Source: a virus. Taken from it: a DNA stretch of 35,208 bases. The notes beneath the pieces were generated by a model that was not told the DNA's origin, did no database searches, and worked only from the letters and a program-made list of their open reading frames with translations. The position numbers were made by a program, and so were the translations under genes. The number at the start of each line of letters is the position of its first letter. Position 1 is the first letter of the stretch. The DNA is taken from IMG/VR virus record IMGVR_UViG_3300044712_001045, positions 1-35,208 of that record, one strand, 5' to 3'. This document shows positions 23,860 through 27,660 of the stretch, in pieces.

Positions 23860-24185
23860 CAGATCACCACTCCCCCCGCGGCCCGCAGGACACGGGTGAC
23901 GCGCTGGCACTGCTCGGGCGAGGTGAACAGAAGCACCAGGCGCTCGCCCTGCTCCATGATGCTGAAGAGGTCCGCGGCGTCGGAGTCGCGGGCAGCCAGC
24001 CGCCGGGTGAACTTGTACCCGGGCTTGACGCCGCCCTTGCGCTTCGGAAGGCCCAGCCGGCGGGCCAGGTGCCACACGCCGGAGTCGCTCATCCCGGCCT
24101 TCGCGGAGATCTCGCTGGAGGGCACGCCCTCTGCCCACATCTCGCGCACCATCGCCTCGATCTCGGGGGTTGCCTTGCGGGTCAT
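23859..24185 (-). CDS. Helix-turn-helix DNA-binding protein, 108 aa
   Basis: EMWAEGVPSSEISAKAGMSDSGVWHLARRLGL is a typical HTH. ATGA overlap with the upstream stop. Confidence 0.55.
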   Translation of the reverse strand: MTRKATPEIEAMVREMWAEGVPSSEISAKAGMSDSGVWHLARRLGLPKRKGGVKPGYKFTRRLAARDSDAADLFSIMEQGERLVLLFTSPEQCQRVTRVLRAAGGVVI

Positions 24186-24550
24186 CCCACACCTCCCATC
24201 CTGATGATGCGCCCGTCCCTGGGCTCCTCGTGCGCCGTCACCAGCCCCATCGCCCGGGCTGCCAGGTCTGCCGCCCTGCCCCGCATGGTGGCGTTGGCGT
24301 CCTTGAGGGCGACCAGCTCCTGCCGCAGCTCACGCATGGCGACCCTCGCAGCTTCGATGTGCGCCTCGGCAACAACAAGCCGCTGGCGCAGGGCAGGCTC
24401 GGCAGCAGCCGCCCCGCGGTCCCATGCCCGCCGCCGGGCGATGGGGAGCCACACCAGCAGGGCAGCCACGGCAGCGGCGAGCAGGATGCAGGCGGCGACG
24501 AGCCACACGGGCTCGAGGCGCCAGGTGGACTCGAGGATGATGGGGGTCAT
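24182..24550 (-). CDS. Membrane-anchored coiled-coil protein, 122 aa
   Basis: N-terminal TM segment PVWLVAACILLAAAVAALLVWLPI followed by a helical region. ATG 24550 overlaps the helicase-MTase stop (ATGA). Confidence 0.5.
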   Translation of the reverse strand: MTPIILESTWRLEPVWLVAACILLAAAVAALLVWLPIARRRAWDRGAAAAEPALRQRLVVAEAHIEAARVAMRELRQELVALKDANATMRGRAADLAARAMGLVTAHEEPRDGRIIRMGGVG

Positions 24551-26790
24551 ACAGAAGCCTCCGCAAACAGAGGAAGTTCTTCGCGCTCGACGTACTTCTC
24601 GACCGTGCGAAGGTTGGCGCATGCCTGCCGCCAGTAGCTCTCCTTGAGCTCGGCCCCGATAAAGCGCCGCCCCATCTTGAGAGCCTCGTAGCCCTCGCTT
24701 CCGATACCCGTGAAAGGCGAGAAGACCAGATCATCGCTCGCGGTCCAAATCTGGAGTGCCCTGTGGATCACCTGTAGTTGCAGGGGAGCGATGTGCCGCT
24801 CGTCCTTCTCCTCGCGAGCACTCGCCTTTTGCAGTGTGTCACTCGGATTGATATCCATCCATACAGGCGAGGCGTACCGCTGCCAGACATCTATCGAAAA
24901 CCGCCCCTCGCTCTTGAACCCGTCGCCCTCGAAATGATCGAACTCGCCAGCGATAGGCTTGGTGTTCTCGCCGGGCTTACGCATCGTCACGAGGTAGTCT
25001 GGCACTCCCTGCCGCGACATCGACGAGTCCTTGACGATCTGCTTGTGTAGCAAGCCGAGCGCCTTTGTGCGCTGCATAGCCGTCACCGGGTCTTTCCAGA
25101 TCACAACCTCGGAGTGATAAATGAACCCGCGCGCCTCAAATGCTCTGATCAGGTCTCCTCGGAAGTCGCGTAGTCCGATGTAGCCATTGTGAGCCTTGCT
25201 GGTAGGAAGGTTCATGCAGTGGAAAGACACGAGCCGTCCCGAGCGCAAGACGCGGTACAGCTCGTCTACCAGAAACCCGAAGTGCGCCGAAAACTCGTCG
25301 TAGTCCTTGCTGTTGCCCATGTCCTGGGCGAGATCGGTGTAGGTGTACAGCGAGGCAAACGGAGGCGAGAAGATCGAGTAGTCGATGCTCTCGGAAGCGA
25401 GACCGCGCGCGACCTCGACGCAATCTCCAAGGTGAACTGTCCATCCATCACCAGTCGCAACTTCGCGCTTGTACTCGCTCACTTGTTTCCTCTCCATGCC
25501 GCGCACGTTCTCGCGGTTGATGTAGCGCATGTGCCTGAGCATCCCGTCTACCATCGCGGCGGCCTGCTTCTCCTTGCGTTCGATGTTCCGCACCACAGCG
25601 CCCTCGCGGTCGCTCGTCACCACATAGACATCAACTGGCGACTTCTGGCCGAACCTCCAGCAGCGGCGCACGGCTTGGTACAGCGCCTCGAAGGAATCCG
25701 ACAAGCCGACGAAGGCCATGCTGTGGCAGTGCTGCCAGTTCATCCCATGGCCCGCAATTGAAGGCTTTGTCACGAGCACGCGCACGCTGCCGTCGCTGAA
25801 ACCGAGCATCCTGCGCTCTTTGTCCTCAATTGTGTCTGAGCCGCGAATCTCTACGGCACCGTTGATCGCCTCTGCGAGCGCACCACTCTCGTCGTTTAGG
25901 TCGCACCAGATAAGCCACGGCTCAGACGATGCGTTGACGAGATCGGCCACGATAGCCGTGCGCCTGTCTATGGTGTCGCGACGCGCCGAGCGCCTCTCCT
26001 GTAGCGTCTTCGCCTCTGACACAAAAAGCTCATCCGCGCCAGGGGCGCCCTCGACTACCAGTTGGTGCATGTTGAGCGGCGGGAGCTTAAAGTTGCCGTC
26101 ATCGTAGCCGAGGTCCGACGGCATCCTGAGCATGACCGCCCAGGAGCAAAGCCACTGCCAGAAGTCGCTTTCAGCGTGGCCTTTGAGCCGCCATTTCTGA
26201 GTCTCGCCGCCGTCGTGGACAAAAAACATCGACAGCATCTCGGTGTAGGACAGCGCCCCGACAAACTCGGAGTGAGACCCGAGCTCCATGTGATCGTTGG
26301 GCGCAGGCGTGGCGGTGCAAGCAAGCTTGAACCGAGTATGCTTGAAAGAGTCGATGATGTAGTTGCGGTACTTGCGGTCCTTGCCCTTGAGGATGCCAGA
26401 CTCGTCGAGCACGACTCCCGTGTATGACGAAGTGTCGAACCGCTCGAGGCGCTCGTAGTTGGTAATCGTGATCTGGCCCATGCGCTTGCCGTCGAGCGAG
26501 TAGCCGATATCATAGTCGCCAAAGTCGTGCGCGAGTCTGACTGTCTGCTTGGCTACGGCGAGCGGGGCGGAAATCAGCACATCGCCTGGGATGTTGCGCG
26601 CCCATTCGAGCTGCATCATCGTCTTGCCCATGCCAGTGTCAGCGAAGATGCACGCGCGCCCGCGCTTGAGCGCCCACCGGGTGATGTCGCGCTGGAAGTC
26701 GAAAAGCTTAGGCGAAAGGTCTGGAGGATTGTCGAGCCCGGTAGGGCTATCGACAACTGCTTTTGTCTTCAAGAAGTCATTGTATGTCAT
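24547..26790 (-). CDS. Fusion protein, 747 aa: N-terminal SF2/SNF2-like helicase and C-terminal beta-class DNA methyltransferase
   Basis: Helicase motifs: FADTGMGKT (I), VVLDESG (II), CTATP (III), QAVRRCWRFGQ (VI). MTase motifs: motif IV SPPF (25357-25368) lies upstream of motif I VFSPFTGIGSEG, which is the beta-class order. Confidence 0.8.
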   Translation of the reverse strand: MTYNDFLKTKAVVDSPTGLDNPPDLSPKLFDFQRDITRWALKRGRACIFADTGMGKTMMQLEWARNIPGDVLISAPLAVAKQTVRLAHDFGDYDIGYSLDGKRMGQITITNYERLERFDTSSYTGVVLDESGILKGKDRKYRNYIIDSFKHTRFKLACTATPAPNDHMELGSHSEFVGALSYTEMLSMFFVHDGGETQKWRLKGHAESDFWQWLCSWAVMLRMPSDLGYDDGNFKLPPLNMHQLVVEGAPGADELFVSEAKTLQERRSARRDTIDRRTAIVADLVNASSEPWLIWCDLNDESGALAEAINGAVEIRGSDTIEDKERRMLGFSDGSVRVLVTKPSIAGHGMNWQHCHSMAFVGLSDSFEALYQAVRRCWRFGQKSPVDVYVVTSDREGAVVRNIERKEKQAAAMVDGMLRHMRYINRENVRGMERKQVSEYKREVATGDGWTVHLGDCVEVARGLASESIDYSIFSPPFASLYTYTDLAQDMGNSKDYDEFSAHFGFLVDELYRVLRSGRLVSFHCMNLPTSKAHNGYIGLRDFRGDLIRAFEARGFIYHSEVVIWKDPVTAMQRTKALGLLHKQIVKDSSMSRQGVPDYLVTMRKPGENTKPIAGEFDHFEGDGFKSEGRFSIDVWQRYASPVWMDINPSDTLQKASAREEKDERHIAPLQLQVIHRALQIWTASDDLVFSPFTGIGSEGYEALKMGRRFIGAELKESYWRQACANLRTVEKYVEREELPLFAEASV

Positions 26791-27080
26791 ACCGCCACCC
26801 TATCCCTCTCGTGGGCAGCCTCCAGGCGTGCGGTCATCCTGGGGTAGAGCCTCGCGAACTTCTGCTCCCCGTACTGGTGGATCTCGTTGTGGTGCGTGGT
26901 GCAGAGGGCCAACAAGTTGGTGGAGTCGTCGTCCCCCCCGGCGCCCCGGGTGCGGATGTGGTGGGGGGCGTCACTGTGCAGCCCGCAGATTTCGCACCTC
27001 GAATGCCCAATCCAAAACCGGGTGTACTCCTCGCTGTAGCCGTACTTGGCGCAGTGTGCCGTGATGTAGTCGATCATCAT
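26787..27080 (-). CDS. HNH endonuclease, 97 aa
   Basis: CEICG...APHHIRTRGAGGDDDSTNLLALCTTHHNEIH. ATGA overlaps at both ends. Confidence 0.75.
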   Translation of the reverse strand: MMIDYITAHCAKYGYSEEYTRFWIGHSRCEICGLHSDAPHHIRTRGAGGDDDSTNLLALCTTHHNEIHQYGEQKFARLYPRMTARLEAAHERDRVAV

Positions 27081-27400
27081 TTTGCGTCGTCTCCTTCGAT
27101 GAGGTTGATGTCGAGCTCGTCGGCTATCTGGTGCAGCTCCTCGATCAGGTAGCCCGCCTGCTCGGTGTCGATGCGTGTCTGGCTCCAGGGAACGATGATC
27201 CCGCCGGCCCAGATGTCGATGGGGTAGCCCCTCTTGGTGGCCCGCAGCTTGGCGAACTCCACCACCTCGCCTACCTCGTGCCCGGTATGCTCTGCGATCT
27301 GCTGGGCGTGGCCGTGGACGTGGTTGTTCTGGCTGCGGGCCCCGGTGCTGCGCGGGCGCCTGAGCCCCGGCAGCACCTGTCCGCAAGAGGGGCAGCGCAT
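27077..27400 (-). CDS. NinB-like recombination/ssDNA-binding protein, 107 aa, with an N-terminal Zn-ribbon
   Basis: MRCPSCG, then RSQNNHVHGHAQQIAEHTG and SQTRIDTEQAGYLIEELHQIADELDI. These parallel lambda NinB RSLDQNRKLWACLGDVS and STSRMRVGEFAELLELIQAFG. By-eye similarity only. Confidence 0.4.
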   Translation of the reverse strand: MRCPSCGQVLPGLRRPRSTGARSQNNHVHGHAQQIAEHTGHEVGEVVEFAKLRATKRGYPIDIWAGGIIVPWSQTRIDTEQAGYLIEELHQIADELDINLIEGDDAK

Positions 27401-27660
27401 CAGTAGACCCGCTCCTTCTTGGCGAAGAGGGCGTCGTAGCACTCCTCGCTTTCCTTCAGGCGCTTCACCAGGGCCACCTCGAGGTGCGTGGCGTCCCGAA
27501 CGAAGTACCTCCGGCCCTTGCTGTCCTTGCCGTGCACCTCGCCGTCCTCGCTCTCGAGGTAGATGGTGATCTCGTAGCCGCCTTCGAGGTCTTCCACGAG
27601 GTAGCTCGGGTTCTTGGGCGTCTCCGCCTCGCCGCAGCCGATGACTCCGTGGTCGCTCAC
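27400..27660 (-). CDS. Hypothetical protein, 86 aa
   Basis: GTG 27660 overlaps the upstream TGA (GTGA). The longer track ORF N-terminus overlaps the upstream gene. Confidence 0.5.
   Translation of the reverse strand: MSDHGVIGCGEAETPKNPSYLVEDLEGGYEITIYLESEDGEVHGKDSKGRRYFVRDATHLEVALVKRLKESEECYDALFAKKERVY

What the first reader, a model, noticed from the sequence alone, without database searches (positions are those of the whole stretch)
24547..26790. SNF2-type helicase fused to a beta-class DNA methyltransferase with an SPPF motif, in a low-GC patch
One 747-aa polypeptide carries a complete SF2 helicase core (GMGKT, DESG, TATP, QxxxRxxRxGQ) and a methyltransferase whose motif IV (SPPF, 25357-25368) precedes motif I (FTGIGSEG).

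SPP(Y/F) is the motif IV variant typical of N4-cytosine methyltransferases such as M.PvuII, whereas N6-adenine enzymes usually have D/NPPY. The enzyme may therefore write m4C on a very GC-rich genome.

The helicase-plus-MTase architecture recalls the P1 anti-restriction protein DarB. It differs in being small and sitting in the early operon between an HNH nuclease and a membrane protein.

Spot counts of 60-nt lines give about 50-60 percent G+C here, against about 72-78 percent in structural genes. That suggests horizontal acquisition.
Basis: partly seen in the sequence, partly recalled or inferred. Interest (0 to 1): 0.62.

Follow-up and report, generated by a model that had tools for sequence, protein, structure and literature searches.

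The report
Phage SNF2 motor–DNA methylase fusion
This uncultivated 35-kb phage really does encode one protein that joins an ATP-driven DNA-tracking motor to a DNA methyltransferase (probably making N4-methylcytosine to hide phage DNA from host restriction enzymes), but it is an ordinary member of a very large, already annotated and still biochemically untested phage protein family.

Summary
The 747-aa ORF at 24547-26790 (minus strand) carries intact SF2 motifs (GMGKT, DESG, TATP, QAVRRCWRFGQ). It also carries a beta-class amino-methyltransferase in which motif IV (SPPF, 25357-25368) precedes motif I (FTGIGSEG).

An AlphaFold model places the N-terminal half among Swi2/Snf2 ATPases. The C-terminal half lies next to Thermus TTHA0409, a putative N4-cytosine enzyme with SPPY.

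The gene is the lowest-GC stretch of its size in the genome, at 59.2% against 66.2%.

The architecture is not new:
- PHROG 16 covers the whole protein.
- 306 GenBank phage records carry full-length relatives, some annotated "DNA helicase/methylase".
- At least 8000 protein clusters and 595 IMG/VR stretches match.
- This scan has reported the same family several times on other DNA.

Ser-Pro-Pro-Phe is invariant in 219 of 219 relatives that carry the methyltransferase, so m4C is a reasonable prediction. It is untested, and the fold alone does not separate m4C from m6A enzymes.

DarB has the opposite domain order and a different methyltransferase class, so it is only a functional analogue.

The most likely role is translocase-coupled self-methylation against host restriction. 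Verdict: new member of a known kind, low interest.

The parts
24547..26790 (-). Whole helicase-methyltransferase gene (747 aa)
   Evidence: ORF list. PHROG 16 covers residues 21-743. The N-terminus MTYNDFLKTK matches the family consensus MxYxxFLxxK, so the start codon is right.
25489..26790 (-). Swi2/Snf2-like ATPase/translocase module, residues 1-434
   Evidence: The top 38 Foldseek PDB hits are Mot1, ISWI, Chd1, CSB, Sth1 and DDM1 (E about 1e-16). Motifs I, II, III and VI are conserved in about 260-270 relatives.
26620..26634 (-). Helicase motif I / Walker A, GMGKT
   Evidence: Translation. G53, G55 and K56 are invariant or nearly so.
26395..26406 (-). Helicase motif II / Walker B, DESG (family consensus DESS)
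26305..26316 (-). Helicase motif III, TATP
25645..25677 (-). Helicase motif VI, QAVRRCWRFGQ (Snf2-style QxxxRxxRxGQ)
25501..25611 (-). Long predicted alpha-helix linking the two modules (residues 394-430)
   Evidence: AlphaFold model: helix at 394-430, followed by a low-confidence hinge at 431-437.
24586..25479 (-). Beta-class N6/N4 DNA amino-methyltransferase module, residues 438-735
   Evidence: Pfam PF01555, E 1.4e-13. A profile search of the PDB finds TTHA0409 over the full domain, E 1.4e-20. Foldseek TMt is 0.81 to TTHA0409.
25357..25368 (-). Catalytic motif IV, SPPF
   Evidence: Translation. S and F are invariant in 219 of 219 relatives that carry the methyltransferase.
24691..24714 (-). 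AdoMet-binding motif I, FTGIGSEG
   Evidence: F693 and G695 are invariant.
26787..27080 (-). Upstream HNH endonuclease gene. Its stop overlaps the fusion gene's ATG (ATGA).
   Evidence: PHROG HNH families and Pfam DUF968/HNHc_6. Sequence at the junction. It resembles the HNH that precedes the homologous gene in mycobacteriophages Ramsey and Pacc40. It is a neighbour only, not a conserved partner.
24182..24550 (-). Downstream gene for a single-pass membrane/coiled-coil protein. Its ATG overlaps the fusion gene's stop (ATGA).
   Evidence: Junction sequence. The translation shows the hydrophobic stretch VWLVAACILLAAAVAALLVWLPI. No family match. Not conserved next to relatives.

Best explanation
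The gene encodes an early-expressed, two-module enzyme. The first module is a Swi2/Snf2-type ATPase that tracks along double-stranded DNA. A long helix tethers it to a beta-class S-adenosylmethionine-dependent DNA amino-methyltransferase.

The most likely job is to methylate the phage's own DNA early in infection and during replication, so that host restriction endonucleases cannot cut it. The motor would supply scanning or processivity. From the invariant Ser-Pro-Pro-Phe catalytic loop, the base made is predicted to be N4-methylcytosine.

Shown here:
- Both modules are present and intact, and both are under strong conservation.
- The gene lies in the early replication/recombination block.
- The helicase-then-methylase partnership is kept in other phages whether the two are fused or encoded as adjacent genes.

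Inferred, not shown:
- ATP-driven translocation.
- Methylation of DNA in vivo.
- The target base and sequence.
- The anti-restriction benefit.
For: Intact and conserved parts:
- Helicase motifs I, II, III and VI and methyltransferase motifs IV and I are conserved across about 220-270 relatives, down to about 35% identity.
- A further 108-sequence alignment shows many invariant residues throughout both halves, including the region between motifs VIII and X that would contact DNA.

Fold:
- The N-terminal half matches Swi2/Snf2 remodellers.
- The C-terminal half matches beta-class DNA methyltransferases, with TTHA0409 best.
- PADLOC places the C-terminal half with Type II methyltransferases and places the helicase in no defence family.

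Partnership:
- The same order, helicase then methylase, is seen fused in S-CBS3 gp40, Flavobacterium FCV phages and Arthrobacter 'DNA helicase/methylase'.
- It is seen split into adjacent genes in Ramsey gp65/gp66, and in Synechococcus phage S-LBS1 and Gordonia phage GMA1.

Context:
- The gene sits in an ATGA-coupled chain in the early block.
- That block also holds an SSB-like protein and a Lin1244-type replication initiator.
- Close relatives sit beside VRR-NUC, RecT/YqaJ or Lin1244 genes.

m4C:
- Ser in motif IV is the hallmark of N4-cytosine enzymes (PMC6712171). The SPPY enzymes N4CMT and M.DraR1 are experimentally m4C (PMC10406627, PMC6712171).

Anti-restriction as the usual role of orphan phage methylases, and a translocating methylase model for SNF2-methylase dyads, are both published ideas (PMC9957025, PMC5512222).
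Against: - No member of this family has been tested biochemically, as far as ten full-text searches could find.
- Helicase-only relatives of about 460 aa at about 50% identity exist (51 of 150 representatives). The motor may therefore have a job that does not need the methylase, although some of these will be split genes or fragments.
- This phage has no other recognisable helicase, primase or polymerase, so the motor may serve replication or recombination.
- Structural neighbours after TTHA0409 are a mix of m6A and m4C enzymes.
- TTHA0409 itself is only 'putative'.
- m4C enzymes with DPPY exist (PMC8259958), so motif IV is an imperfect guide.
Confidence: 0.55

Rival explanations
1. Same machine, different base. 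The methyltransferase writes N6-methyladenine rather than N4-methylcytosine, and Ser in motif IV is a family quirk.
For: - After TTHA0409, the next fold neighbours include the adenine enzymes CcrM, M.BceJIV, RsrI, MboIIA and HpyAVI, at scores similar to the m4C enzymes PvuII and N4CMT.
- The NCBIfam hits are to adenine-specific models, but only over the AdoMet region and far below their cut-offs.
- Motif IV does not map one-to-one onto the target base (PMC8259958).
- The distant branch of the family has SIPF, which matches no canonical rule.
Against: - Ser is invariant in 219 of 219 relatives.
- Characterised SPPY/F enzymes cited here are m4C (PMC10406627, PMC6712171).
- The only full-domain sequence match in the PDB is an SPPY protein regarded as an N4-cytosine enzyme (PMC5173035).
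Confidence: 0.25
2. The SNF2 module is mainly a replication or recombination motor, for example a fork remodeller or annealing helicase working with the SSB-like protein and the Lin1244-type initiator. The methyltransferase is a passenger that rides the replisome, so that nascent DNA is methylated as it is made.
For: - The gene lies in the replication/recombination block. Relatives lie beside RecT, YqaJ, VRR-NUC or Lin1244 genes or beside an SSAP and a replication initiator.
- No other helicase, primase or polymerase was found in this genome.
- Helicase-only relatives are common.
- On the helicase tree, methyltransferase presence changes at least 7 times.
- Inteins and homing endonucleases target the gene, as they do essential replication genes.
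Against: - Many 'helicase-only' entries may be split genes with the methylase next door, as in Ramsey, or may be fragments.
- The tight fused-or-adjacent partnership argues that the two parts act together.
- Snf2 enzymes translocate on duplex DNA without unwinding it (PMC5512222), which is not what a replicative helicase does.
Confidence: 0.3
3. The methylation is regulatory, for example timing of late transcription, packaging or replication origin control as with Dam or CcrM, rather than protective.
For: Orphan methylases with regulatory roles exist (PMC13076061, abstract seen). The gene is early and precedes the late switch.
Against: Nothing here points to a regulatory role. The gene is patchily distributed and freely exchanged between unrelated phages spanning 36-68% GC (PMC9957025). 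That pattern fits an accessory defence-evasion gene better than a hard-wired regulator.
Confidence: 0.05
4. The C-terminal domain is not a DNA methyltransferase, and instead has an RNA or protein substrate or is catalytically dead.
For: No activity has been measured.
Against: - Every sequence and structure match is to DNA amino-methyltransferases of PF01555.
- The catalytic and AdoMet motifs are invariant.
- The domain is fused to a DNA translocase.
Confidence: 0.03

Closest known systems
Phage 'DNA helicase/methylase' family (PHROG 16), for example Synechococcus phage S-CBS3 gp40 'DNA methylase', Flavobacterium columnare phages FCV/FCOV, and the split pair gp65/gp66 of Mycobacterium phage Ramsey
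   Same: - Full-length homology: 56.6% identity over 98% of the length to S-CBS3 gp40, 44% to FCV phages, and 43% to the Ramsey pair.
- The same domain order, the same helicase motifs, and the same SPPF and F-x-G-I-G-S motifs.
- An early or replication-module position.
   Different: Nothing fundamental differs. This copy is in a new, otherwise almost unannotatable 35-kb high-GC phage lineage. It is 7 GC points below its genome, and its neighbours are not shared with relatives.
Actinophage and Pseudomonas-phage 'DNA helicase/methylase' branch (Arthrobacter phage Hestia gp69, Mycobacterium phage Pacc40 gp60, Pseudomonas phage YMC/01/01/P52 'DNA methylase N-4/N-6')
   Same: The same architecture, at 29-32% identity over both halves. 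Pacc40 gp60 is of the same architecture; whether it is the same methylase family as the one studied for inteins and horizontal transfer (PMC9957025, PMC11855218, PMC5050341) was not confirmed, since Pacc40 and Ramsey are not named in PMC9957025.
   Different: Motif IV is SIPF rather than SPPF. The recognition region has a large extra insertion, and inteins are frequent.
TTHA0409 of Thermus thermophilus HB8 (PDB 2ZIE/2ZIF/2ZIG), a putative beta-class N4-cytosine DNA methyltransferase
   Same: It is the best sequence and structure match for the C-terminal module. The match runs over the whole domain, including the recognition region, with S-P-P-aromatic in motif IV (PMC5173035).
   Different: It is a stand-alone 297-aa protein with no motor. 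Identity is only about 20%. Its own specificity is not established.
Phage P1 DarB and the methylase-helicase dyad of polyvalent proteins
   Same: The concept is shared: a DNA methylase joined to a Swi2/Snf2-type ATPase in a mobile element, proposed to translocate along and protect incoming DNA from restriction (PMC5512222).
   Different: In DarB the methylase is EcoKI/TaqI-like, adenine-specific and N-terminal to the helicase. The protein is very large, carries LPD36 and is packaged in the virion (PMC5512222). Here the order is reversed, the methylase is beta-class with SPPF, the protein is 747 aa, and it is made from an early operon.
Type III restriction-modification enzymes (Mod plus Res), including the m4C subgroup
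   Same: A beta-class amino-methyltransferase works together with an SF2 ATPase that moves on DNA (PMC7544214, PMC8259958).
   Different: Res carries a PD-(D/E)XK nuclease and is not of the Snf2 type. Mod and Res are separate subunits. No nuclease domain is present here, and Type III Mod structures are only distant fold matches (ranks 43-45).

Membership tests
Phage DNA helicase/methylase family (PHROG 16) | Full-length homology to annotated members | tested here: met
   phrog_16 E 2.3e-70 over residues 21-743. 306 phage records cover at least 80% of the query.
Phage DNA helicase/methylase family (PHROG 16) | N-terminal SF2 ATPase core with motifs I, II, III and VI, followed by a C-terminal PF01555 domain with motif IV before motif I | tested here: met
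Phage DNA helicase/methylase family (PHROG 16) | DNA-dependent ATPase/translocase and DNA methyltransferase activities | not testable with these tools
   No biochemical report was found for any member.
Swi2/Snf2 ATPases | Two RecA-like lobes with Snf2-type structure | tested here: met
   The top 38 Foldseek PDB hits are all Snf2 remodellers (probability 1.00, E 6e-17 to 7e-15). The model has mean pLDDT 82.
Swi2/Snf2 ATPases | Match to the Pfam SNF2-related domain model (PF00176) above its threshold | tested here: not met
   The query has no PF00176 hit. Relatives give only sub-threshold hits of 22.8-25.4 bits against a cut-off of 24.9, and one precomputed hit. It is therefore a divergent prokaryotic/phage branch, Snf2-like by fold and by motif VI.
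N4-cytosine DNA methyltransferases (functional class) | Ser at the first position of motif IV (S-P-P-Y/F) | tested here: met
   SPPF at residues 475-478, invariant in 219 of 219 relatives. The rule is taken from PMC6712171 and PMC10406627. The feature is indicative, not strictly defining (PMC8259958).
N4-cytosine DNA methyltransferases (functional class) | m4C demonstrated in the product DNA | not testable with these tools
   This needs SMRT or nanopore kinetics, or LC-MS/MS.
N4-cytosine DNA methyltransferases (functional class) | Closer to characterised m4C enzymes than to m6A enzymes | tested here: inconclusive
   The best match, TTHA0409, is uncharacterised. The next neighbours alternate between m6A (CcrM, BceJIV, RsrI) and m4C (N4CMT, PvuII) enzymes.
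DarB-type methylase-helicase dyad (phage P1) | EcoKI/TaqI-like adenine methylase placed N-terminal to the SF2 helicase, with LPD36, in a very large virion protein | tested here: not met
   The order here is helicase then methylase. The methylase is PF01555 beta-class, and the protein is 747 aa. The family definition is taken from PMC5512222.
Type III R-M (Res/Mod) | SF2 ATPase carrying a PD-(D/E)XK nuclease, with a separate Mod subunit | tested here: not met
   There is no nuclease domain. ResIII is only a weak sub-threshold hit, and PADLOC finds no Res family.

The most novel reading that the evidence does not exclude
The Snf2 motor may turn the SPPF methyltransferase into a processive writer of N4-methylcytosine with low or no sequence specificity. 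Such an enzyme would 'paint' a GC-rich phage genome in one pass. The unusually conserved DNA-contacting region across the whole family would then reflect a shared, promiscuous target rather than many specificities. That would be a mode of anti-restriction not yet demonstrated for any phage. It could also explain why the module has been captured by what looks like a eukaryotic HMG-box chromatin protein (P0165).
Probability: 0.15. Interest if true: 0.65.

Novelty: new member of a known kind. Interest (0 to 1): 0.25.

Why it matters
For this phage the gene matters little beyond annotation. It is the one well-conserved early gene in an otherwise orphan genome, and it was probably acquired horizontally.

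The family as a whole is worth one good experiment:
- It is among the most widespread phage methylase architectures, with thousands of clusters in hosts from 36% to 68% GC.
- It has an invariant m4C-type catalytic loop.
- It keeps a strictly maintained partnership with a Snf2 motor.
- No published activity, target sequence or phenotype was found.

Cultivable carriers exist: mycobacteriophages on M. smegmatis mc2155, the Synechococcus phage S-CBS3, and Flavobacterium phages. The question of what the motor adds to the methylase is therefore directly testable.

Tried and rejected
1. A conserved HNH-helicase-methylase trio. The window's HNH resembles the HNH that precedes the homologous gene in Ramsey and Pacc40 (E 1e-5 and 4e-6), with ATGA overlaps in each case. 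However, tblastn of the window's HNH found it in none of 80 IMG/VR loci. A motif scan found an HNH upstream in 1 of 69 loci. An HMM of the three HNHs found one weak hit. The trio is rejected as a family feature.

2. Conserved synteny in general. None of 17 neighbouring window proteins is conserved beside relatives, apart from three isolated hits.

3. Membership of a defence system such as DISARM DrmD/DrmMI or Zorya. PADLOC gives only generic Type II methylase models and no helicase family.

4. Deciding m4C against m6A from fold neighbours. This was inconclusive.

5. Finding experimental literature on the family. The Paracoccus virome paper does not treat the Pthi1 homologue as a methylase.

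6. Near-identical phage genomes in GenBank. None were found.

7. A tree of the helicase domain to count gains and losses of the methylase. It gave 16 changes by parsimony, with at least 7 forced by supported branches. Fragments and split genes inflate the count, so it is used only qualitatively.
Full report
**What the window is.** The window is a complete IMG/VR virus record of 35,208 bp with direct terminal repeats. Its GC content is 66.2%. Nearly all genes are on the minus strand. No GenBank phage is similar at the DNA level. Most structural genes match no PHROG family.

**The observation.** The ORF at 24547-26790 (-) encodes 747 aa.
- GMGKT, residues 53-57
- DESG, residues 129-132
- TATP, residues 159-162
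- QAVRRCWRFGQ, residues 372-382
- SPPF, residues 475-478 (25357-25368)
- FTGIGSEG, residues 693-700

Pfam finds N6_N4_Mtase at 470-723 (E 1.4e-13), and Helicase_C, DEAD and ResIII just under their cut-offs. Motif IV before motif I is the beta-class order (PMC2890505). The start codon is supported by the family-wide N-terminal consensus.

**Neighbours.** Upstream is an HNH nuclease gene. Downstream is a gene for a protein with one hydrophobic helix followed by a coiled-coil-like region. The junctions read GTATGACAT and GTATGACCC, so each stop overlaps the next ATG. The gene before the HNH is coupled in the same way. Four genes therefore form one translationally coupled chain in the early block. 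That block also holds an SSB-like protein and a Lin1244-type replication initiator.

**Composition.** The gene is 59.2% GC. That is the lowest of all windows of its size in the genome (mean 66.0%, sd 2.1%). Its GC3 is 0.77, against 0.90-0.96 in the large structural genes. The two closest relatives, at 82% and 77% identity, are likewise 8 GC points below their flanks. Across 73 related loci, gene GC tracks flank GC (r = 0.92, mean deficit 1.5 points). This sub-lineage therefore looks recently moved between phages, whereas older copies are ameliorated.

**What the two halves are.** An AlphaFold model built on 108 sequences has mean pLDDT 82. Its N-terminal half matches Swi2/Snf2 ATPases exclusively at the top of the PDB list: Mot1, ISWI, Chd1, CSB, Sth1 and DDM1, with E about 1e-16. 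The motif VI form QxxxRxxRxGQ agrees with this. The Pfam SNF2 model itself is not matched above threshold, so this is a divergent phage branch.

For the C-terminal half, the only full-domain sequence match in the PDB is Thermus TTHA0409 (E 1.4e-20 with a family profile). It is also the best fold match (TMt 0.81). TTHA0409 carries SPPY and is regarded as a putative N4-cytosine enzyme (PMC5173035), but its specificity is not established. After it, the fold neighbours alternate between adenine enzymes (CcrM, M.BceJIV, RsrI, MboIIA, HpyAVI) and cytosine-N4 enzymes (N4CMT, PvuII).

**How common it is.**
- PHROG 16 spans the whole protein.
- tblastn finds 336 phage records, 306 of them full-length. 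They include Synechococcus S-CBS3 gp40 (56.6%), 85 Flavobacterium phages, 147 mycobacteriophages, and Arthrobacter phages explicitly annotated 'DNA helicase/methylase'.
- The exhaustive 50%-representative search gave 7184 hits at E up to 0.001 and 1278 at E up to 1e-30.
- IMG/VR gave at least 595 stretches.
- Earlier reports of this scan describe the same family on other genomes and reached the same verdict. I reached mine from my own searches.

**Family features.**
- In 219 methyltransferase-bearing relatives, motif IV is S (219), P (210), P (216), F (219). Helicase motifs I, II, III and VI are equally conserved.
- A distant branch (Hestia gp69, Pseudomonas P52, Pacc40 gp60) has SIPF instead.
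- The helicase-then-methylase order is kept when the two are separate adjacent genes, as in Ramsey gp65/gp66 and others.
- 51 of 150 representatives are helicase-only. On the helicase tree, methylase presence changes repeatedly, though fragments and split genes inflate this.
- Inteins and LAGLIDADG endonucleases interrupt both halves in many members. This is already published for actinophage methylases (PMC5050341, PMC9957025, PMC11855218).
- Neighbouring genes are not conserved. Relatives sit in varied replication/recombination modules containing VRR-NUC, MmcB-like, RecT/YqaJ or Lin1244 genes.
- The HNH neighbour recurs only in cluster F mycobacteriophages and not in IMG/VR relatives.

**Mechanism.** The best-supported reading is a Snf2-type duplex-DNA translocase tethered by a long helix (residues 394-430) to a DNA amino-methyltransferase. 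It would be made early and would modify the phage's own DNA against host restriction.

The partnership, intactness and placement are shown. Translocation, methylation, target base and benefit are inferred.

Ser in motif IV is the classical N4-cytosine hallmark (PMC6712171, PMC10406627). Given that a methylated base is made, I put m4C at roughly 65-70%. The rule is imperfect, because m4C Type III Mod enzymes have DPPY/F (PMC8259958).

The main rival is that the motor primarily serves replication or recombination, with the methylase riding along. This phage has no other recognisable helicase, primase or polymerase. The two readings are not exclusive.

**Comparison with known systems.** DarB is a functional analogue only. 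Its methylase is EcoKI/TaqI-like, adenine-specific and N-terminal to the helicase, in a giant virion protein with LPD36 (PMC5512222). Type III Res/Mod shares the beta-class methylase plus SF2 ATPase logic, but Res is a nuclease-helicase of another type. The same review already notes that Snf2 ATPases are widely coupled to methylases in phages, in one polypeptide or as neighbours (PMC5512222).

**Verdict.** This is a new member of a known, very common and annotated family that remains untested biochemically. Interest is low for this copy. The family-level question, what the motor adds and whether the product is m4C, is open and easy to test in cultivable phages.

Noticed in passing
P0165 (metagenome protein, 1304 aa; not in the window): A family member, 43% identical over query residues 22-731 and with SPPF intact, carries two C-terminal HMG boxes and Lys-rich NLS-like linkers. 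It looks like a eukaryotic, or eukaryote-virus, capture of the phage Snf2-methylase module. This is reminiscent of the bdelloid N4CMT, a bacterial-type m4C methylase fused to a chromodomain (PMC10406627). It has a single member on a 4.9-kb ENA contig.
   Followed up: partly
window 26787-27080 (-); L003:3591-3953; L090:2743-3105: The window's HNH resembles the HNH that sits immediately upstream, also with a 4-nt overlap, of the homologous helicase/methylase gene in the cluster F mycobacteriophages Ramsey and Pacc40. Those two phages carry different branches of the family at that locus: split SPPF in Ramsey and intein-bearing SIPF in Pacc40. The pairing is absent from 69-80 IMG/VR relatives. It could be chance, or a homing endonuclease that targets this conserved gene.
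   Followed up: yes
window 27077-27442, 26787-27080, 24547-26790, 24182-24550 (all -): Four consecutive early genes are chained by ATGA stop/start overlaps: a 121-aa protein of unknown function, the HNH, the helicase-methylase and the membrane protein.
   Followed up: partly
whole window: Apart from the large terminase, a tail-fibre fragment, the HNHs, a metallophosphoesterase and the helicase-methylase, the large ORFs match no PHROG family at E up to 1e-5. No GenBank phage is similar at the DNA level. The phage belongs to a poorly sampled lineage, with no recognisable polymerase, primase or second helicase.
   Followed up: partly
L090:3102-7127 (Pacc40 gp60); Mycobacterium phage Squirty gp68: Intein-bearing members of this family are annotated in GenBank/RefSeq as 'anaerobic ribonucleoside reductase large subunit'. 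This is probably an annotation error carried over from the intein or homing-endonuclease part.
   Followed up: no
P0121, P0123, P0194, P0213, P0217 (relatives): Inteins (Hint, Intein_splicing) and LAGLIDADG homing endonucleases are inserted in both the helicase and the methyltransferase halves of many family members.
   Followed up: partly
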